58,954 nt of DNA from a virus (taxonomy: Duplodnaviria > Caudoviricetes), in the IMG/VR virus record IMGVR_UViG_3300044997_000299, positions 1 to 58,954 of that record; one strand, 5' to 3'. A program made the translations under genes and the position numbers. Below are positions 19,304 to 56,224 of this stretch, one piece after another. The notes under the pieces were generated by a model that searched no databases, had not been told where the DNA came from, and worked only from the letters and a program-made list of their open reading frames with translations. Within the stretch, counting starts at the first letter, position 1; every line of letters starts with the position of its first letter.

Positions 19304-19765
19304 TTAATATGTATGCAATATATCCTCTGGATTATTGATTGTTGCGATGATTTCATCATCGTTTAAAATTCGAACTTCTCCGCCATCTATTTTGAAACGG
19401 CTTCCTGCATATCTTCCAAAAATGATCCATTGATTTTCTTTACACCACGCACCCAATGGAAATTTTTTTCTATCTCTGTAACAAAGAGATCCCATTTTTA
19501 AAACTAAACCTACAACTGTAGTTTGTTGAATTGTGGATTGTGTTACATCAGAATAAATTATTCCACCTTTAGTTTTTTGCGGACCAGAATATGGAAGAAC
19601 TAAAATTCTCCAACCTGTAGGTGTAGGTAATTTATCAATTAATTTTTCATCAAGAGATGATGAATCGAGATAGAGTTTTTCTACCTCTTCCTTGGTCTTA
19701 TATGCATTTAAGAGACCGTTTTCTTTCGAATCAGTCTCGGGCGCCTGAGGCGTTGTCGTCGTCAT
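19304..19765 (-). CDS. groES: co-chaperonin GroES
   Basis: PTGWRILV...KTKGGII...FGRYAG...RILNDDEI. Confidence 0.9.
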   Translation of the reverse strand: MTTTTPQAPETDSKENGLLNAYKTKEEVEKLYLDSSSLDEKLIDKLPTPTGWRILVLPYSGPQKTKGGIIYSDVTQSTIQQTTVVGLVLKMGSLCYRDRKKFPLGAWCKENQWIIFGRYAGSRFKIDGGEVRILNDDEIIATINNPEDILHTY

Positions 19766-19946
19766 TTAGCTCCTGTTTTTTTAACAAGTCCGTTAGGTCT
19801 TGTAGCAGATCATCAAGTGATCTGATTTGACCTATTATATATTGATATGTTGTAAAATTGTCAACACCTATGATAATTTTATCACACAACAAGGATCTTT
19901 TCTCTTTTATCCTTTTTTGAATGTACCTTAATGTATCAAAATCCAT
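19731..19946 (-). CDS. conserved phage protein upstream of GroES
   Basis: GVDNF..YQY..GQI..L motif. Confidence 0.7.
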   Translation of the reverse strand: MDFDTLRYIQKRIKEKRSLLCDKIIIGVDNFTTYQYIIGQIRSLDDLLQDLTDLLKKQELNDDDNASGARD

Positions 19947-30402: not shown

Positions 30403-30436
30403 TAATTATCTTATATACATAAGATAATTAAAACAA
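30403..30436 (-). promoter_or_regulatory. promoter with palindromic operator 1
   Basis: TAATTATCTTAT-ATAC-ATAAGATAATTA; TTGTTT-17-TAAGAT on the - strand. Confidence 0.75.
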
Positions 30437-30602
30437 GAAATATTTTTAATTATGTACAATTATTTTTTTACTGTTGCTTCTTTGCAACATTCATATCAAA
30501 TTTAAAAATCTAATGTTTAAAACCAAAACACTACCCTGCAACCAACTCCACCAGTTCCACCGTTGTCAGCTGCATCCCATCCGCTGCTTTAATAAATTAA
30601 TC

Positions 30603-30636
30603 ACGGAACGGGAACAGGATGGGAAACGGGACGGGA
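30603..30636 (+). repeat. GGGAAC-type G-tract cluster A
   Basis: acggaacgggaacaggatgggaaacgggacggga (4 GGG runs). Confidence 0.85.
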
Positions 30637-30732
30637 TTAGAGAAGAAGTAAAATTAAAAATAAAAGTAAAAGCAATTGGCCTGCTGTGGTAAACAACAGG
30701 CCAATCACTGCAAGGATTGAAATCCAAAACAT
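30637..30732 (-). CDS. 31-aa hydrophobic membrane micropeptide (not in ORF track)
   Basis: MFWISILAVIGLLFTTAGQLLLLLFLILLLL; TAATG-coupled to the upstream gene. Confidence 0.65.
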   Translation of the reverse strand: MFWISILAVIGLLFTTAGQLLLLLFLILLLL

Positions 30733-30965: not shown

Positions 30966-30983
30966 AGTGCTCCTTTTGTTTGT

Positions 30984-31026
30984 TATCTTATATACATAAG
31001 ATAGCTTATTACTGAAGTCAAGTCAA
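30984..31026 (-). promoter_or_regulatory. promoter with palindromic operator 2
   Basis: TATCTTATATACATAAGATA (30984-31003), identical to copy 1; TTGACT-17-TATCTT. Confidence 0.75.
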
Positions 31027-31102
31027 AAATAGAAAAAATTGCAGGGAGATCCAGGATGCGCTGGATGGTATTATTATTAACATCTGCAAACAAGTCACGC
31101 AT

Positions 31103-31141
31103 CACGGAACGGGAACGGGACGGGCGACCGTGGTCGCCCGT
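31103..31141 (+). repeat. G-tract cluster B with GC hairpin
   Basis: cacggaacgggaacgggacggg; acgggcgacc-gt-ggtcgcccgt. Confidence 0.8.
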
Positions 31142-31746: not shown

Positions 31747-31772
31747 GGTTGCTCCTTATGTTGTTTATTTAT

Positions 31773-31805
31773 TATCTTATATATATGAGATACTTTTAAA
31801 GTCAA
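31773..31805 (-). promoter_or_regulatory. promoter with palindromic operator 3
   Basis: TATCTTATATATATGAGATA (31773-31792); TTGACT at 31800-31805. Confidence 0.7.
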
Positions 31806-31925: not shown

Positions 31926-31957
31926 ACGGGAACGGGACGTGGGATGCGGGAACGGGA
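31926..31957 (+). repeat. G-tract cluster C
   Basis: acgggaacgggacgtgggatgcgggaacggga (5 GGG runs). Confidence 0.85.
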
Positions 31958-32050
31958 CTACATCAACAAAATCAACAGAAGCAGCAGAGCTACCTGCCCT
32001 GGTACTGTGAACAGCAGCAGGGCAAGTAATAATAGTAACAACCAAAACAT
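31958..32050 (-). CDS. 30-aa hydrophobic micropeptide, paralog of 30637-30732 (not in ORF track)
   Basis: MFWLLLLLLALLLFTVPGQVALLLLLILLM; no obvious SD. Confidence 0.55.
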   Translation of the reverse strand: MFWLLLLLLALLLFTVPGQVALLLLLILLM

Positions 32051-32065
32051 GATGCGGGAACGGGA
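32051..32065 (+). repeat. G-tract cluster D; 15-bp direct repeat of 31943-31957
   Basis: gatgcgggaacggga. Confidence 0.85.
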
Positions 32066-32076
32066 TCAGCTTTTGT

Positions 32077-32175
32077 CTATTTTAAATTAGGCCTTGTAAC
32101 TCTATCTCTAATAGTTCCTGCAAACTCAGGATAAAGAATCGCAATGAGTGCAGGAACTATTATTAATGTCCACAT
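32077..32175 (-). CDS. 32-aa membrane micropeptide (not in ORF track)
   Basis: MWTLIIVPALIAILYPEFAGTIRDRVTRPNLK; starts right after the upstream stop, AAAGG RBS. Confidence 0.55.
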   Translation of the reverse strand: MWTLIIVPALIAILYPEFAGTIRDRVTRPNLK

Positions 32176-32176
32176 G

Positions 32177-32416
32177 TTACGCTACCTTTTTCCGATGACC
32201 AAACAAATCTAAGATGTGTGTATCCAGAATTTCCCACGAGATGCCAACATTTGCATCATGATACTTCAAACACAAATCAAGAACTTGACGGCATTCCTCC
32301 TTGTTTAGTCTGATATTTATGTTTTGGGCTTGTTCCTTAACGTCTTCGACATTCCACAAAATGGAGATGTGATCATCATCAACCCAACCCCACTTCGGTA
32401 ATTTTTTCTTTCTCAT
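32177..32416 (-). CDS. hypothetical early protein
   Basis: W..EDV...L...ECR.VL......HDA..GISW motif. Confidence 0.75.
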   Translation of the reverse strand: MRKKKLPKWGWVDDDHISILWNVEDVKEQAQNINIRLNKEECRQVLDLCLKYHDANVGISWEILDTHILDLFGHRKKVA

Positions 32417-32418
32417 AA

Positions 32419-32598
32419 TTAAAACCTAATTGGTTCAGCTTTTCTAAAATCGTCTTCAAGAAAAATTGGCTCTCCTGATATTTCATAGCCCGCTTGTTCT
32501 ATTAAAATTTTTTTAGCCATTCTTTCATTTTTTGCATAGATCTTATATTGCATAGTTGCAGGTATATCGTATACAAAAAGTTTATTTTTATTTTTCAT
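32419..32598 (-). CDS. 59-aa hypothetical early protein (not in ORF track)
   Basis: MKNKNKLFVYDIPATMQYKIYAKNERMAKK...; fills an operon gap. Confidence 0.6.
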   Translation of the reverse strand: MKNKNKLFVYDIPATMQYKIYAKNERMAKKILIEQAGYEISGEPIFLEDDFRKAEPIRF

Positions 32599-32599
32599 T

Positions 32600-32902
32600 T
32601 TAATATTTTAATTTAATTTGATTAGGCCTTGTAACTCTATCTCTACCAGTTTCATAAAACAAAGTATCATGAAGTTTCCATTTTTTAAGATGACGAGCTT
32701 CGTTGGCCACAGTCCCAAAACCACGGCGCTGAGTTCCTGATCTTATCTGCACCCACATCTTTTCGTTTACATTACCTTCAGTAAACCATACGTAAACAAA
32801 ATTTTTAAAGTCCTTTAATAGTTCTTGTTTTTTTATTTTGAAGTAAGTTTCTTTACCGTGCTCTTTGCACGTATAAATCATATTTTCTTTCGGCTTCTGC
32901 AT
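32600..32902 (-). CDS. hypothetical early protein (DUF2314-like EKMWV motif)
   Basis: EKMWV...G...N; AGGAG RBS. Confidence 0.7.
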   Translation of the reverse strand: MQKPKENMIYTCKEHGKETYFKIKKQELLKDFKNFVYVWFTEGNVNEKMWVQIRSGTQRRGFGTVANEARHLKKWKLHDTLFYETGRDRVTRPNQIKLKY

Positions 32903-32934
32903 CGTGGCTCCTTTTGTTAATTGTTAAAGCAAAC

Positions 32935-32972
32935 TGTCCCATACATATAAGATAAGTAATTCCTAATGTCAA
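32935..32972 (-). promoter_or_regulatory. promoter with degenerate operator 4
   Basis: TGTCCCATACATATAAGATA (32935-32954); TTGACA-17-TATATG. Confidence 0.7.
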
Positions 32973-33100
32973 GTATAATTTTAAAATATTTTTCTACTAC
33001 GCCACAGATTGTGACGCACCGACCACAGACCTTGGTGAGCAGCATGCTACCCTGGTGAAGTAGAATCCTGATCCGTGATTCGATGTTTGTGGATCTTGGC

Positions 33101-33131
33101 TACGGGACGGGAACTAGAAACGGGAATGGGA
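33101..33131 (+). repeat. G-tract cluster E
   Basis: tacgggacgggaactagaaacgggaatggga. Confidence 0.8.
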
Positions 33132-33134
33132 GCT

Positions 33135-33197
33135 TAAAAATGGTAGCCCAACGGACACTAAACAGGAGCTAATTATTTAGAGGATGTCGAGCTACCG
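33135..33197 (-). ncRNA. candidate anti-Shine-Dalgarno small RNA 1
   Basis: Own promoter, 11-bp stem with G-U pairs, apical AUUAGCUCC loop, 3' U tract. Confidence 0.6.
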
Positions 33198-33203
33198 ACC
33201 ACA

Positions 33204-33232
33204 AATATAATCATCATGGGATGTGATGTCAA
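33204..33232 (-). promoter_or_regulatory. sigma70 promoter of sRNA 1
   Basis: TTGACA (33227-33232), 17 bp, TATATT (33204-33209). Confidence 0.75.
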
Positions 33233-33235
33233 CAA

Positions 33236-33670
33236 TTATTTTTTATTTGTTTTTGAACTTGCATCCTGGTGCCCTGAAGTAGATGCCTGATGGGTGATTA
33301 TCTTATTTAAAACCGCGGTCCATGAAACGGGGTGCGGGAAATGGGAAACGGGAAGCGTGAATAACGGATCAGGGTGCAAGCAAGAATTGTAGTCATAAAG
33401 TTTTACGGCCCTCAGCCTGAGGTCGAAATTTAAGATAAAAACTCTGCCACCAGCACTACCGCGTTTTAAAATCCACGCTTTTTGATATTTAGTTAATGAA
33501 GTTTGTTTTCTCTTTTTTACCTTCAACTCGAGCCAAAATTCAGTTCCTCGATAACATCCATTGACATCGGGAATGCCAAGTCCAACATTAGTTTCGATTC
33601 TTTGAAAGTGTACGTTTGGCAACGCTTTTTTTATTTTTTGGTATAGCTTCGATTCTTCTTTTTGCATCAA
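33236..33670 (-). CDS. VRR-NUC/Holliday-junction resolvase-like nuclease
   Basis: E..L...RIE...G.PD....FWLELK.......Q.AW.....GG..FIL. Confidence 0.8.
   Translation of the reverse strand: MMQKEESKLYQKIKKALPNVHFQRIETNVGLGIPDVNGCYRGTEFWLELKVKKRKQTSLTKYQKAWILKRGSAGGRVFILNFDLRLRAVKLYDYNSCLHPDPLFTLPVSHFPHPVSWTAVLNKIITHQASTSGHQDASSKTNKK
33329..33353 (+). repeat. G-tract cluster F (inside nuclease 3' tail)
   Basis: ggggtgcgggaaatgggaaacggga. Confidence 0.75.
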
Positions 33671-34016
33671 ATTTTCCGCAAACTAAATGCGTTTGTAGAT
33701 AGGGTAAAAACCATTTGTTATCTCTAAAAACTTGTGAAAGACTGTTTGAAATAGCGTTAACAATTAATTCCTCGTTTTTTTCTTTAAAAAGTAAATTTCC
33801 TTGTGAGCTAAGTCCCGCTTGATAGACACAAGCGTGAATAATTTCGTGTAAGAGGGTATTGGCCTCTGATCTAGCATTCTGTTCTTTTTGGATATCGATT
33901 TTAGCGTTGCTACTGTCATATTCTCCTAAAACATTATCATCCTTCTTGTCTTTTGTCTCAAAATTAATTAAATTAATTGCAATATCTTCAAATCCAATTT
34001 TAATCTTTTTTTTCAT
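33588..34016 (-). CDS. HEXXH metallopeptidase-like protein (start revised to MKKKIK)
   Basis: TLLHEIIHA...EE..VN; GGAG RBS. Confidence 0.75.
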   Translation of the reverse strand: MKKKIKIGFEDIAINLINFETKDKKDDNVLGEYDSSNAKIDIQKEQNARSEANTLLHEIIHACVYQAGLSSQGNLLFKEKNEELIVNAISNSLSQVFRDNKWFLPYLQTHLVCGKFDAKRRIEAIPKNKKSVAKRTLSKNRN

Positions 34017-34096
34017 TAGTTTTAATCTCCACCGCACCTAAAGACATGTTTAAGTGCTTGTTATGTACTCTATTAAACTGCACCCAAAAATCTTCT

Positions 34097-34603
34097 TTAA
34101 GAAGATTTTTTGTTTTCTTCGATTTCAAGGACTTTTTCAAACGATATCTCATCTTTAAGCTCATTGATTGTTTTGATTAATTCATCTTTTGTCATCGCTG
34201 ACAAGTCTTGCACTTTAATCTCTTTTCGATCAATGTAAAAGCCTGCTGCTTGCCCAAGCCTAAATTCTGCATTAATAGCCGCAGCAAGTTGGTTTTTATC
34301 TTCGGCTTTTTTTGAAAGTGAGTCTAATCTTTTTAAATGTCTTAAATAATCCTTATAGGTATTTGTTTTTGTCTCACGCAATCTTTCAATATACGCAACA
34401 ACATGAGGAAACTTATCTGGGTTTGTTAATAGACTTCCCCATTTACCAGTGGTTGTTTCGGCATAACCTGCGTGACGGGCAGCTTCTTGTTTTGTACAAT
34501 CAGGGTAATTAGCAACATAAAATTCTGCAAATGCACGTTGTTTACCAGTTAAAAGCTCAGCCCCTTTCAAATTTGCTTTAACTTCTTGAACTAAAGTTTC
34601 CAT
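34097..34603 (-). CDS. terS: terminase small subunit
   Basis: LT.KQRAFAEFY...EAARHAGY HTH; AAINAE..LG...G.YIDRKEI. Confidence 0.75.
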   Translation of the reverse strand: METLVQEVKANLKGAELLTGKQRAFAEFYVANYPDCTKQEAARHAGYAETTTGKWGSLLTNPDKFPHVVAYIERLRETKTNTYKDYLRHLKRLDSLSKKAEDKNQLAAAINAEFRLGQAAGFYIDRKEIKVQDLSAMTKDELIKTINELKDEISFEKVLEIEENKKSS

Positions 34604-36211: not shown

Positions 36212-36515
36212 TGTATTTTTTTCGCCAGTTAATGTAATTAATTTGTTCTTTAGTGAAATAAATTTGTTCGTTGTCGACCATTTTAAGATATTTTTCTCTA
36301 ACTGTTTTATCGTTTAAATCTGCTAAGTTACAAATGATCTTAAAGTTTTCACTATTATTTATAAACCACAAGTGAGCTTGATATTTAAACATAATTAACG
36401 ATCGTTCCATTCCGGGATAAATAACATCCTCGAATGCTCGTTGAATTACTGCTCTCCAAAGTTTTGTTTCTGGTAAGACTTCGTCTTCGTAAATTTCTGT
36501 TTTTAGCTCCTGCAT
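36168..36515 (-). CDS. conserved phage protein (possible transcription regulator)
   Basis: E.KLWRAVI..A..D...A..WF.....F..IC.LA. Confidence 0.6.
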   Translation of the reverse strand: MQELKTEIYEDEVLPETKLWRAVIQRAFEDVIYPGMERSLIMFKYQAHLWFINNSENFKIICNLADLNDKTVREKYLKMVDNEQIYFTKEQINYINWRKKYNERRNIDNGTGNFL

Positions 36516-39605: not shown

Positions 39606-41467
39606 TATGCATCTCCCCAGTCCTTTCCAATTGTAACATCGACTTTAGACGGCACAACTAATTCTGGAATAGAACTTTCCATTATTTTTTTTATTTCTTC
39701 TGAATCTTTGCTTTCCCTTACACTAAAGCATAATTCGTCATGTATTTGCAACATAGGTAAAAATCCAGCATTATAACAGTCAATCATAGCTTGTTTAACT
39801 TGATCTGCAGCTGAACCTTGAATGAGTCTATTTAAAGCTTTAAATGTACCGGATCTTCTAATGTTATTAATTCCATACTTTTGAACTGCATCATCATAAG
39901 TTGTTGATTTATTTAATCCCCAACTTGCAACTTCCCATTTATCAAATCTGCAACGTCTTCCTCTAATTGTTCTTATAGACCCATTTGCTTCTGCTGATTC
40001 TTGACACTTTGACGCTAATTGTTTTACGAAAGGAACTTTCTTGTTGTAATTCTCCAAAAGTTTTTTTGCTTCTTCTTCTCCGATTCCAAGTTGAGCGGAT
40101 AATTTTTTGGCACCCATTCCATAAAAAAGTCCCAAGTTAATAGTTTTCGCTTGTCCTCTAGGTATGCCCGCCATATCTGCGACTGTTTGATGGAAGTCTG
40201 CGTCGTCTTTCTCATAAGCTTTTATTAATTGATCTGATCCCTTAAATCCAACTGTGTAAGCATAGTGTGCCACAAGTCTTGGCTCCTGTTGCGAATAGTC
40301 GAATGAACCCCATAGTAAATTAAAATCAGGTTTAAATATAGATCTAATTTTAGATCCAAACTCTTTATTTTTTGCTGGAACTTGCTGTAAGTTTGGATTT
40401 GACATGGATAATCTGCCAGAAACTGTGCCCCCTGAATCTGATTTTAATTGATTTATTTCCGCGTGAATTCTGCCTTTATGTTGATACTTTATAATTGAAT
40501 CAATAAATGTAGATGTAAATTTGTTTATTTCTCTTGCTTCTCGCAGGTATTTTGCAATCGGTGCAGAACAATTTAATAGCCAATTTGCTGTAAAGCTTGG
40601 TTCTTTTGTCTTCTCTGTTCTTGGATAGTCTATCTTTAATTTATCGAAAGCTTTTGCTATACTTCTTGCCTCCCAAATTTCTACATTCAAACCGCATTCT
40701 TTGTTAATTTGATGTAATAAAGTTTTTTCTTTTTCTAAAAATTCTTTCTTTAATTTTTCAGCCTGCATGACATTTACACGTATTCCTTTTGCTCTCATTG
40801 AAATTAGAATCGGCGTAAGTCTAGTCTCTAAATCAAATATAGTTTGTAAAGAGTTGTCGTAAATTTTGAATTTTAAATATTGCCAAAGTTTTAAAGTTAA
40901 TGATGCATCTTGTTCGGCATAAAATCCTACATACTGTGCTGGTAGTTTATAAAGCTCCTGTTTAGCGTCTAGACCCCAATCGGCCGCTGCTTCTTTAAGC
41001 TCTTGTTCAGATTTTGTTTCGCCTAACCAATCGAAGCCGAGAGAATTTAGTGAATAGGAAAATCTATTTTCGTCTACAATAGCTGCAGCTATCATAGTAT
41101 CAATTATTCTTCCATTTTTAATATTGATCCCGTGCGCTCTTAACCAACCCACATCGTATGATGAATTGTGAAATATTTTATCACCTGAACCACTTACTAT
41201 GTCTTGAACCCAATCCATTACCATTTTGTAATCCATGTTGGAACCAACTTCATGACTGATAGGGTAATAACCAACAAAGCCTTCCGTGGCCACACCTATG
41301 CCTACAATGTTTCCGTCCATGGTAGGCCAACCAGATCCCTTTTCTTTTATGTTTGGATCTTTTGTTTCTAAGTCTATTGCTATTTCTTTTGCATTTTTTA
41401 AATCAGGAAAGTGTGTCGGGGGAGTCCAATCGGATTCTTTAAATACAAAATTTATTTGATGACTCAT
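39605..41467 (-). CDS. polA: DNA polymerase family A with 3'-5' exonuclease
   Basis: DLET exonuclease I motif, GRLS..NPNLQQ, DYSQQEPR, KTINLGLFYGMG, QIHDEL. Confidence 0.95.
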   Translation of the reverse strand: MSHQINFVFKESDWTPPTHFPDLKNAKEIAIDLETKDPNIKEKGSGWPTMDGNIVGIGVATEGFVGYYPISHEVGSNMDYKMVMDWVQDIVSGSGDKIFHNSSYDVGWLRAHGINIKNGRIIDTMIAAAIVDENRFSYSLNSLGFDWLGETKSEQELKEAAADWGLDAKQELYKLPAQYVGFYAEQDASLTLKLWQYLKFKIYDNSLQTIFDLETRLTPILISMRAKGIRVNVMQAEKLKKEFLEKEKTLLHQINKECGLNVEIWEARSIAKAFDKLKIDYPRTEKTKEPSFTANWLLNCSAPIAKYLREAREINKFTSTFIDSIIKYQHKGRIHAEINQLKSDSGGTVSGRLSMSNPNLQQVPAKNKEFGSKIRSIFKPDFNLLWGSFDYSQQEPRLVAHYAYTVGFKGSDQLIKAYEKDDADFHQTVADMAGIPRGQAKTINLGLFYGMGAKKLSAQLGIGEEEAKKLLENYNKKVPFVKQLASKCQESAEANGSIRTIRGRRCRFDKWEVASWGLNKSTTYDDAVQKYGINNIRRSGTFKALNRLIQGSAADQVKQAMIDCYNAGFLPMLQIHDELCFSVRESKDSEEIKKIMESSIPELVVPSKVDVTIGKDWGDA

Positions 41468-56184: not shown

Positions 56185-56224
56185 ATATGGCTTGCTCCTG
56201 TTTTAAATACGTATTTAGAACACT

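What the first reader, a model, noticed from the sequence alone, without database searches (positions are those of the whole stretch)
33135..33232. Phage small RNA displaying an anti-Shine-Dalgarno seed that matches the groES and other late-gene RBSs
Seen: a near-consensus promoter (TTGACA-17-TATATT) fires into ~60 nt with no ORF. The RNA folds into GGUAGCUCGAC/GUUGGGCUACC plus CUAAAUA/UGUUUAG, whose G-U pairs work only on the - strand, and ends in a U tract. The apical segment UUAGCUCCUGUUU (33160-33172) is perfectly complementary over 13 nt to the groES RBS (19766-19778). Shorter matches: 10 nt to the leader of the 476-aa virion gene (~56194-56203), 10 nt to codons 2-5 of the 115-aa gene (36503-36512), and 9 nt to the RBSs of the 342-aa scaffold, 158-aa and 41-aa genes. 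Inference: an early trans-acting sRNA that delays head-morphogenesis translation, or silences host AGGAG leaders.
Basis: partly seen in the sequence, partly recalled or inferred. Interest (0 to 1): 0.85.

Follow-up and report, generated by a model that had tools for sequence, protein, structure and literature searches.

The report
Conserved phage RNA matching groES start
A short, strongly folded RNA made just after a strong promoter in this marine-type phage and its relatives exposes a sequence that can pair with the ribosome-landing site of the phage's own GroES chaperone gene, so it probably throttles that gene's translation.

Summary
A near-consensus promoter on the minus strand (-35 at 33232-33227, -10 at 33209-33204) leads into a 55-nt hairpin (33196-33142). 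Its loop is exactly complementary over 13 nt to the groES ribosome-binding site (19766-19778).

The RNA is a single-copy, previously uncatalogued family: no Rfam match, and 28 distinct variants in three architectures among relatives of HTVC023P-type pelagiphages. GCUCCUGUUU is invariant, and stem changes are wobble-compatible or compensatory on this strand only.

In all 16 contigs that hold both loci, the RNA matches the groES site over 12-15 nt. Cross-pairing RNA and site between the window's architecture and the second one drops to 10 nt. In two further genomes, the groES site is the longest match anywhere on the coding strand (15 nt).

Three points need correcting:
- The U tract occurs only in this window, and in one architecture an ORF starts 15-30 nt downstream. 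The RNA is therefore often a 5' leader, not a free 60-nt sRNA.
- The groES "leader" lies inside a conserved 71-aa ORF.
- An equally long match inside the DNA polymerase gene is clade-specific.

No expression data exist. The best reading is a trans-acting antisense repressor of groES translation, confidence about 0.6. The scan's earlier notes concern only this same window.

The parts
33227..33232 (-). -35 hexamer TTGACA of the RNA's promoter
   Evidence: TTGAC(A/T/C) is present upstream of all 28 family variants.
33204..33209 (-). -10 hexamer TATATT, 17-nt spacer. The predicted start is about 33196-33197, the first G of the stem.
   Evidence: 11 of 12 matches. The hexamer and its distance to the stem are conserved in relatives. 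The start site is inferred, not measured.
33142..33196 (-). 55-nt structured RNA, single copy in the genome.
   Evidence: fold; 81.8 bits, next-best hit 14.9. (conservation).
33186..33196 (-). 5' arm of the outer stem, GGUAGCUCGAC.
   Evidence: 11 pairs, 8 invariant. The 3 that vary do so on one side only and always keep a pair (UA/UG, GU/AU, CG/UG). 100% of cells are paired.
33142..33152 (-). 3' arm of the outer stem, GUUGGGCUACC.
33158..33180 (-). Upper stem CUAAAUA/UGUUUAG (33174-33180 with 33158-33164) enclosing the loop AUUAGCUCC (33165-33173).
   Evidence: In one search, helix 2 has 2 of 6 pairs changed on both sides and 83.8% of cells paired.
33160..33172 (-). Anti-Shine-Dalgarno seed UUAGCUCCUGUUU. 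GCUCCUGUUU is invariant in the family.
   Evidence: invariant columns. (complementarity).
33136..33141 (-). A + UUUUU tail after the stem. It looks like a terminator in this genome only.
   Evidence: Absent from the other variants. The terminator scan did not list it.
19766..19778 (-). Predicted target AAACAGGAGCUAA: the Shine-Dalgarno region of groES, whose ATG is at 19765-19763.
19304..19765 (-). groES (153 aa).
   Evidence: phrog_3188 co-chaperonin GroES, E 2.1e-15. A passage of PMC9599517 lists GroES as a core gene of HTVC023P-type phages.
19731..19946 (-). Conserved 71-aa ORF whose last codons (KKQEL...) contain the groES ribosome-binding site. It carries an embedded promoter-like TTGACA (19859-19864) / TATATA (19836-19841) and a covarying hairpin (19806-19824).
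40953..40969 (-). Second long complementary site (17 bp with one G-U) inside the DNA polymerase gene. Probably fortuitous.
   Evidence: Present in only 3 of 11 genomes compared; the others code DAKGEM at this place.
56194..56203 (-). 10-nt match at the ribosome-binding site of the 476-aa gene. A possible secondary target.
   Evidence: The same site is present in the close relative G006.

Best explanation
The locus encodes a promoter-proximal, stably folded regulatory RNA. It starts at or next to the first G of an 11-bp terminal stem and displays the invariant sequence GCUCCUGUUU. This sequence sits in an apical loop in this window's architecture, or in a single-stranded internal segment in a second architecture.

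The exposed segment pairs in trans with the Shine-Dalgarno region of the phage's own groES mRNA, 13.4 kb downstream on the same strand. It covers the SD up to the base before the AUG, which would block 30S binding and lower GroES translation. Because groES opens the head-gene block, it may also lower translation of the genes behind it.

Shown here by computation: the RNA structure, its conservation, its strand, the promoter motif, and the conserved and partly co-varying complementarity.

Inferred: that the RNA is made, where it ends, that pairing occurs in the cell, that the effect is repression, and its timing. In most relatives the RNA is probably the 5' part of a longer early transcript, or is cut out of one, rather than a terminated 60-nt sRNA.
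For: 1. Fold. The RNA folds far better than shuffles in all three architectures, z -3.7 to -5.7.

2. Conservation at the expected place. A 161-nt query found it in 41 of the 49 loci that encode the neighbouring VRR-NUC gene. Conservation peaks exactly on the hairpin even where the protein is only 63-66% identical.

3. Family size. 28 of 31 distinct pattern matches carry a promoter, the stem and GCUCCUGUUU. More variants occur in metagenome contigs.

4. Stem changes keep pairing on this strand only.
- Architecture A, outer helix: 100% of cells paired, against 26-46% when the partner is slid.
- Architecture A, upper helix: 2 pairs changed on both sides.
- Architecture B, inner hairpin: 2 pairs changed on both sides, and the anti-SD is left unpaired.

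5. Copy number and novelty. It is single copy and matches no Rfam family.

6. Match to a start region in the window. 13 nt; reached by 1 of 1000 shuffles, or 5 of 1000 with CUCCU fixed.

7. Same-contig pairs. The perfect match is 12-15 nt in 16 of 16. The pairs cover architectures A (12-13 nt), B (15 nt) and C (13 nt).

8. Covariation between architectures.
- Architecture B has RNA UGGCUCCUGUUUCUU and site AAGAAACAGGAGCCA.
- Architecture A has RNA UAGCUCCUGUUU and site AAACAGGAGCUA.
- That is an A-to-G change in the RNA matched by a U-to-C change in the site.
- Cross-pairs between A and B give 10 nt.

9. Cofold gain. -12 to -14 kcal/mol for matched B pairs, against 0 to -5 for B RNA with A leaders.

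10. Unbiased genome scans. The groES site is the longest match on the whole coding strand of G002 (62.4 kb, 15 nt, 0 of 500 shuffles reach it) and of G024 (48.8 kb, 15 nt, 3 of 500).

11. Target context. In the groES mRNA the site lies in an A-rich single-stranded stretch after a covarying 5' hairpin.
Against: - There is no expression evidence of any kind.
- The terminator-like U tract occurs in only 1 of 28 variants. In architecture B an ORF starts 15-30 nt after the stem. A role as a cis leader is therefore at least as natural.
- The 10-nt core AAACAGGAGC of the target is also constrained by the codons K-Q-E of the overlapping 71-aa ORF and by SD function. Its conservation is not independent evidence, and much of the conserved complementarity could be one ancient coincidence kept by descent.
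- Covariation rests on few events. In G016 the site changed (GAGCAA) without a compensating change at that position. Its RNA would match other genomes' sites better (14-15 nt) than its own (13 nt).
- Relatives with the same AAACAGGAGC site lack the RNA: G003, L407 and L415. So do G001, which has the variant AAAACGGAGC, and the two cultured phages HTVC023P and HTVC027P.
- In the window, the cofold gain is only -5.5 kcal/mol. It is no better than shuffled RNAs, which lose their own structure.
- In the window, an equally long match occurs in the polymerase gene.
Confidence: 0.6

Rival explanations
1. It is a purely cis-acting 5' leader module tied to the promoter. It could be a 5'-terminal stem-loop that protects the early transcript from decay, an RNase III-type processing site, or a put-like element that makes RNA polymerase resistant to termination. 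On this reading the invariant GCUCCUGUUU is a protein or polymerase contact, and the groES match is incidental.
For: - The stem starts at the predicted +1.
- The promoter-plus-RNA unit sits in front of different downstream genes in different relatives. In architecture B it lies 15-30 nt before an ORF.
- The U tract is not conserved.
- The outer stem is conserved in sequence, not only in pairing, as expected for a binding site.
- C-rich repeats that could be Rho-loading sites follow it in the window's clade.
Against: - It does not explain why the flanks of the invariant segment track the groES site between architectures (15 nt in matched B pairs, 10 nt for cross-pairs between A and B).
- It does not explain why the groES site is the best match in whole-genome scans of three genomes.
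- The element is single copy, although the genome has several similar early promoters without it.
Confidence: 0.25
2. It is a cis anti-SD. The exposed GCUCCU pairs with the Shine-Dalgarno sequence of the first gene of its own transcript and tunes that gene's translation.
For: In architecture B an SD (for example AAAGGAGCA or GAAAGGAGAA) lies 8-20 nt after the stem, within reach of the unpaired GGCUCCU.
Against: - Complementarity to those SDs is only the 5-6-nt core and varies among downstream genes.
- In architecture A the next ORF is roughly 190-370 nt away. In the window it is 239 nt away and has its own promoter.
- The long matches are to groES.
Confidence: 0.07
3. It is an ordinary intrinsic terminator of the upstream VRR-NUC gene, or a chance hairpin, with a fortuitous SD-like complement.
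For: In the window a stem followed by five U lies downstream of the 33236-33670 ORF. Matches of 13 nt somewhere in 59 kb occur in 7% of shuffles.
Against: - A conserved promoter lies between the ORF and the hairpin.
- The U tract is absent in relatives.
- The loop sequence is invariant across three architectures.
- The complementarity recurs in every same-contig pair.
Confidence: 0.04

Closest known systems
c4 antisense RNA of phages P1 and P7 (as described in review PMC12197685, passages read; further details recalled)
   Same: It is a phage-encoded, structured RNA of about 55-80 nt. Complementary sequences presented in loops bind around a ribosome-binding site of a phage mRNA and block translation. 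c4 is cut out of the 5' part of a longer transcript, which is the likeliest origin of this RNA in most relatives.
   Different: - There is no sequence or model similarity: no Rfam hit at gathering or E-value thresholds.
- c4 uses two loops and two target sites within its own operon and controls an antirepressor (recalled).
- Here there is one seed, the target is 10-13 kb away, and the target is a chaperonin gene at the head of the structural block.
Trans-encoded SD-occluding sRNAs of prophage origin, such as DicF, and the P22 sar RNA (recalled; sar appears in the reference list of PMC12197685, seen)
   Same: A short RNA with its own promoter that pairs with the SD or start region to repress translation.
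   Different: - sar is encoded antisense to its target.
- DicF acts on host ftsZ with Hfq.
- Here the predicted target is a phage core gene. The RNA has no conserved terminator or U tail and no evident Hfq module.
HK022 put RNAs (recalled, not tested)
   Same: A structured RNA encoded immediately downstream of an early promoter.
   Different: put acts in cis on RNA polymerase and has no antisense target. The family here shows co-varying complementarity to a distant ribosome-binding site.
PeSL promoter/stem-loop cassettes of T4-type phages (recalled, not tested)
   Same: A promoter and a stem-loop form a unit found between small early genes in a plastic genome region with repeated intergenic cassettes.
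   Different: PeSLs are multi-copy recombination and regulatory cassettes. This RNA is single copy per genome and has an invariant anti-SD.

Membership tests
Trans-acting base-pairing sRNA that occludes a ribosome-binding site | Own promoter directly upstream | tested here: met
   TTGACA-17-TATATT scores 11 of 12. The motif and its spacing to the stem are conserved in all 28 variants. This is a motif only; no transcript start was measured.
Trans-acting base-pairing sRNA that occludes a ribosome-binding site | Discrete short transcript with a defined 3' end (intrinsic terminator or processing site) | tested here: inconclusive
   A stem followed by five U occurs in the window only, 1 of 28 variants. 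In architecture B an ORF starts 15-30 nt after the stem.
Trans-acting base-pairing sRNA that occludes a ribosome-binding site | Conserved, structurally accessible seed | tested here: met
   GCUCCUGUUU is invariant. AGCUCC or GCUCCUG is unpaired in the MFE folds of all 6 representatives and in the architecture B consensus.
Trans-acting base-pairing sRNA that occludes a ribosome-binding site | Complementarity to the target start region conserved and co-varying across genomes | tested here: met
   12-15 nt in 16 of 16 same-contig pairs. Cross-pairs between architectures A and B give 10 nt. One A-to-G change in the RNA is matched by a U-to-C change in the site. One site change, in G016, is not compensated at its own position.
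Trans-acting base-pairing sRNA that occludes a ribosome-binding site | Demonstrated regulation of the target | not testable with these tools
   Needs a reporter or infection experiment.
C4 antisense RNA (P1/P7) and every other Rfam family | Match to the family covariance model | tested here: not met
   0 matches at gathering score over the whole window. The best sub-threshold matches in 33080-33260 were 17, 13.2 and 10.1 bits, against cut-offs of 41, 47 and 111.8.
Intrinsic (Rho-independent) terminator | G+C-rich stem directly followed by a conserved U tract at the end of a transcription unit | tested here: not met
   The U tract is absent from relatives (GUUCUCA, GUAAUCC, GUCAUCUU and others). 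A promoter lies between the upstream ORF and the stem. The site is not listed by the terminator scan.
tRNA / tmRNA | Cloverleaf recognised by ARAGORN | tested here: not met
   0 genes found in the window.
put-like cis antiterminator RNA | Acts in cis on RNA polymerase to suppress downstream terminators | not testable with these tools
   Only position (promoter-proximal) and structure can be compared. There is no model for this family in the tools used.

The most novel reading that the evidence does not exclude
A portable 'promoter + riboregulator' cassette does double duty. It forms the protective 5' end of whatever early operon it heads. In trans, its exposed 16S-like anti-SD gates translation of the core GroES and head-gene block, and of a few other genes that carry the extended AAACAGGAGC site. 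This would give phages that rely on the host polymerase and sigma-70-type promoters throughout an RNA-based timer for morphogenesis. It would be the first regulatory RNA described for the most abundant group of pelagiphages.
Probability: 0.3. Interest if true: 0.78.

Novelty: new member of a known kind. Interest (0 to 1): 0.64.

Why it matters

Nothing about small or noncoding RNAs turned up in those two papers. The term searches for 'sRNA' and 'small RNA' gave 0 occurrences in both, and 'noncoding' gave 0 in PMC9599517, the only one of the two searched for it. The ten papers that mention HTVC023P showed nothing on the subject in their titles and abstract openings.

A conserved RNA predicted to control the chaperonin that opens the head-gene block would be a concrete, testable handle on how these phages time morphogenesis. 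They lack an RNA polymerase of their own among the genes annotated here.

The natural pair of co-varying architectures, A and B, predicts orthogonal RNA/leader pairs. That makes a clean reporter test possible even without a cultured host-phage pair that carries the element.

Tried and rejected
- Rfam at gathering and at permissive thresholds gave nothing usable.
- ARAGORN found no tRNA or tmRNA.
- blastn of 32000-34500 against the phage collection gave no match.
- Public RNA runs: none was listed for 32400-34400.
- The DNA polymerase internal site (40953-40969) was considered as the true target and rejected. It is conserved in only 3 of 11 genomes.
- A second complementarity was considered: RNA GUCCGUUGGG with leader CCUAACGGAC, 10 bp with one G-U. 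It is present throughout architecture A but absent in B and C, so it is treated as probable chance.
- My guess that the L043-type RNA would pair with an 'AGCUUAU' groES site was wrong. The same-contig site in G016 is GAGCAA, and the match is 13 nt through the A run.
- RNAduplex and cofold energies discriminate poorly, because shuffled RNAs lose their own structure.
- A search with the 897-aa protein, meant to capture both loci on one locus, gave only 6 loci.
- The TerL search gave 80 loci but no new RNA/groES combination. Its two same-contig pairs, L402 and L406, come from contigs already counted.
- No element was found in HTVC023P or HTVC027P, in G001, G003 or G004, or in five further relatives.
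- Supplementary data sets of PMC9599517 and PMC12753301 (orthogroup and expression tables) were not opened. They may bear on groES timing.
- The host-leader hypothesis was not tested, because no host genome is linked to a virus record.

Full report
WHAT IS THERE

The window is a whole IMG/VR virus record of 58,954 nt, estimated 97% complete. Nearly all genes are on the minus strand. Its DNA polymerase is 59% identical to that of Pelagibacter phage HTVC023P, and the gene order is similar. It is therefore a relative of the HTVC023P-type pelagiphages.

The finding lies in a region of small genes separated by repeated intergenic cassettes. It sits just downstream of a VRR-NUC-type nuclease ORF at 33236-33670.

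On the minus strand I confirm the following:
- TTGACA at 33232-33227, a 17-nt spacer, and TATATT at 33209-33204. This is the best of 24 promoter-like sites in 6 kb.
- A 55-nt RNA at 33196-33142 whose first base is about where transcription should start.
- The RNA folds into an 11-bp outer stem, a 7-bp upper stem and a 9-nt loop AUUAGCUCC. MFE is -20.6 kcal/mol, z is -4.87, and 0 of 200 shuffles fold as well.
- A + UUUUU follows the stem.
- There is no ORF, no tRNA and no Rfam family.

IT IS A CONSERVED, STRAND-SPECIFIC RNA FAMILY

A 161-nt query found the element in 41 of 49 IMG/VR loci that encode the neighbouring nuclease. In the distant ones (nuclease 63-66% identical) only the hairpin itself still aligns, at about 81% identity.

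Pattern scans and a covariance model brought the family to 28 distinct variants in IMG/VR (28 of 31 distinct pattern matches). More variants turned up in metagenome contigs. All 28 lie behind a TTGAC(A/T/C) promoter.

Three architectures exist:
- A (this window): the anti-SD is in the apical loop.
- B: a 13-14-bp outer stem and a variable inner hairpin, followed by single-stranded UGGCUCCUGUUU.
- C: a compact form.

GCUCCUGUUU is invariant in all three.

Evidence for pairing:
- In A, the 11 outer pairs are 100% paired. Their 3 variable pairs change only to wobble-compatible pairs that work on this strand alone.
- Sliding the partner by 1-3 columns drops pairing to 26-46%.
- The upper helix of A and the inner hairpin of B each have two pairs with changes on both sides.
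- The element is single copy: 81.8 bits, with the next-best hit at 14.9 bits.

THE COMPLEMENTARITY

In the window, the loop and the 3' side of the upper stem (33160-33172) are perfectly complementary to AAACAGGAGCUAA (19778-19766). This is the Shine-Dalgarno region of groES, ending one base before its AUG.

Chance levels:
- A match of 13 nt or more anywhere on the coding strand arises in 142 of 2000 shuffles.
- Within 89 start regions it arises in 1 of 1000 shuffles, or 5 of 1000 with CUCCU held fixed.

The window has a second match of equal length, 17 bp with one G-U, inside the DNA polymerase gene (40953-40969). That site exists in only 3 of 11 genomes compared. Elsewhere the codons read DAKGEM, not DAKQEL, so I treat it as fortuitous or clade-specific.

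They are what any RNA carrying the complement of this phage's common AGGAGC(U) ribosome-binding sites would give.

ACROSS GENOMES

In 16 of 16 contigs that carry both the RNA and groES, the perfect match is 12-15 nt. Some of these contigs may be the same sequence held in two collections. They cover nine RNA/site combinations.

| Architecture | RNA | groES site | Match |
|---|---|---|---|
| A | UAGCUCCUGUUU | AAACAGGAGCUA | 12-13 nt |
| B | UGGCUCCUGUUUCUU | AAGAAACAGGAGCCA | 15 nt |
| C | UAGCUCCUGUUUC | GAAACAGGAGCUA | 13 nt |

- Cross-pairing A and B RNAs with each other's sites gives 10 nt.
- The A-to-G change in the B RNA is matched by U-to-C in its site.
- Cofold gains are -12 to -14 kcal/mol for matched B pairs, against 0 to -5 for B RNA with A leaders.
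- In unbiased scans of two B genomes, the groES site is the longest match on the entire coding strand: 15 nt, reached by 0 of 500 shuffles in G002 and 3 of 500 in G024. The next-best match is 12 nt, at another ribosome-binding site.

WHAT WEAKENS THE CASE

- The 10-nt core of the site is also fixed by codons. The groES start lies inside the last codons (KKQEL...) of a conserved 71-aa ORF at 19731-19946. Conservation of the core is therefore not independent evidence.
- Covariation rests on few events. In G016 the site changed to GAGCAA without compensation at that position, although a U run keeps the total at 13 nt.
- Relatives with the same AAACAGGAGC site lack the RNA: G003, L407 and L415. 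So do G001, which has the variant AAAACGGAGC, and both cultured phages, whose groES sites read AAGGAGG and GAAGGAGC.
- The U tract is unique to this window.
- In architecture B an ORF begins 15-30 nt after the stem. In A the next ORF is roughly 190-370 nt away.
- The RNA is thus often the 5' end of an mRNA, and its 3' end is unknown.
- No RNA data could be obtained.

MECHANISM

The most likely mechanism, at about 0.6, is this. The RNA is made from a host-type promoter, either as a short RNA or as the 5' part of an early transcript. Its exposed anti-SD pairs with the single-stranded A-rich/SD stretch of the groES mRNA.

That mRNA appears to start at a sigma-70-like promoter embedded in the 71-aa ORF. 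It begins with a hairpin that has three compensatory pairs in 34 leaders. Pairing would block ribosome binding and lower GroES synthesis, and possibly that of the head genes behind it.

Rivals:
- A purely cis leader function, such as stabiliser, processing site or antiterminator: 0.25.
- Cis sequestration of the downstream SD: 0.07.
- A terminator or chance: 0.04.

COMPARISON AND NOVELTY

It works like the RBS-occluding phage antisense RNAs. The closest is P1/P7 c4, a leader-derived RNA whose loops bind around a ribosome-binding site (passages of PMC12197685). It is not a member of that or any other catalogued family.

The searched literature on HTVC023P-type phages lists GroES as a core gene but no regulatory RNA. 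These were term searches and passages only; supplements were not seen.

I rate it a new member of a known kind, of good interest because of the abundance of this phage group and because the natural A/B variants give a ready-made specificity test.

Noticed in passing
window 30600-30640, 31101-31124, 31926-31960, 32046-32069, 33095-33130, 33320-33350 (minus strand C-rich); L230, L244, L192: CCCGUUCCCG-type repeats follow gene ends in the early region. In architecture B relatives, the same motif sits between the SD and the start codon of a 35-aa hydrophobic peptide ORF directly after the RNA. In the window it directly precedes the ATG of a 30-aa hydrophobic ORF (32050).
   Followed up: partly
window 19731-19946 (minus strand): A conserved 71-aa ORF overlaps the groES start by 35 nt. 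It carries a sigma-70-like TTGACA/TATATA inside its codons GVDN/YQYII. Similar motifs occur at the same place in HTVC027P and HTVC023P.
   Followed up: partly
window 19806-19824 (minus strand): Hairpin CAGAUCA-CUUGA-UGAUCUG just after that embedded promoter. In 34 leaders, 3 of its 7 pairs show changes on both sides, through synonymous or conservative codon changes. It is a likely 5'-terminal stem of the groES mRNA.
   Followed up: yes
window 40953-40969: 17-bp complementarity (one G-U) between the RNA and codons DAKQEL of the DNA polymerase gene. It is present only in the window's close clade, 3 of 11 genomes.
   Followed up: yes
window 33210-33226 and relatives: The promoter spacer holds ATCCCATGAT in some relatives and the inverted ATCATGGGAT in others. 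This suggests a near-palindromic protein-binding site inside the promoter.
   Followed up: no
window 33236-33670: The VRR-NUC domain covers only residues 4-80 of the 144-aa ORF. The ORF's tail reads through the C-rich repeat and ends inside the -35 box of the RNA promoter.
   Followed up: no
L207, L275, L276 (G002, G025, G024), about 3.3 kb upstream of the RNA: A gene starting MHTEYESEP has its SD locked in a local hairpin CUCCUGU-cagaa-ACAGGAG. It also matches the architecture B RNA over 12 nt.
   Followed up: partly
L410:3040-3100: A variant of the architecture B RNA with GGCUCCUGUUCUUCAG and compensating changes in the 5' arm. It would pair with CUGAAGAA(A)CAGGAGCC of a B-type groES leader over about 18 bp. 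The groES site of that genome is not on the contig.
   Followed up: no
window 32086-32138 and 32621-32673: Two different small genes share a 53-nt 3' end, 79% identical, with peptide ...RDRVTRPN. This fits cassette shuffling in the early region.
   Followed up: no
window 30405-30429, 30982-31006, 31771-31795, 32931-32960: A palindrome, TTATCTTATATACATAAGATAA, overlaps the -10 of four early promoters but not the RNA's promoter.
   Followed up: no
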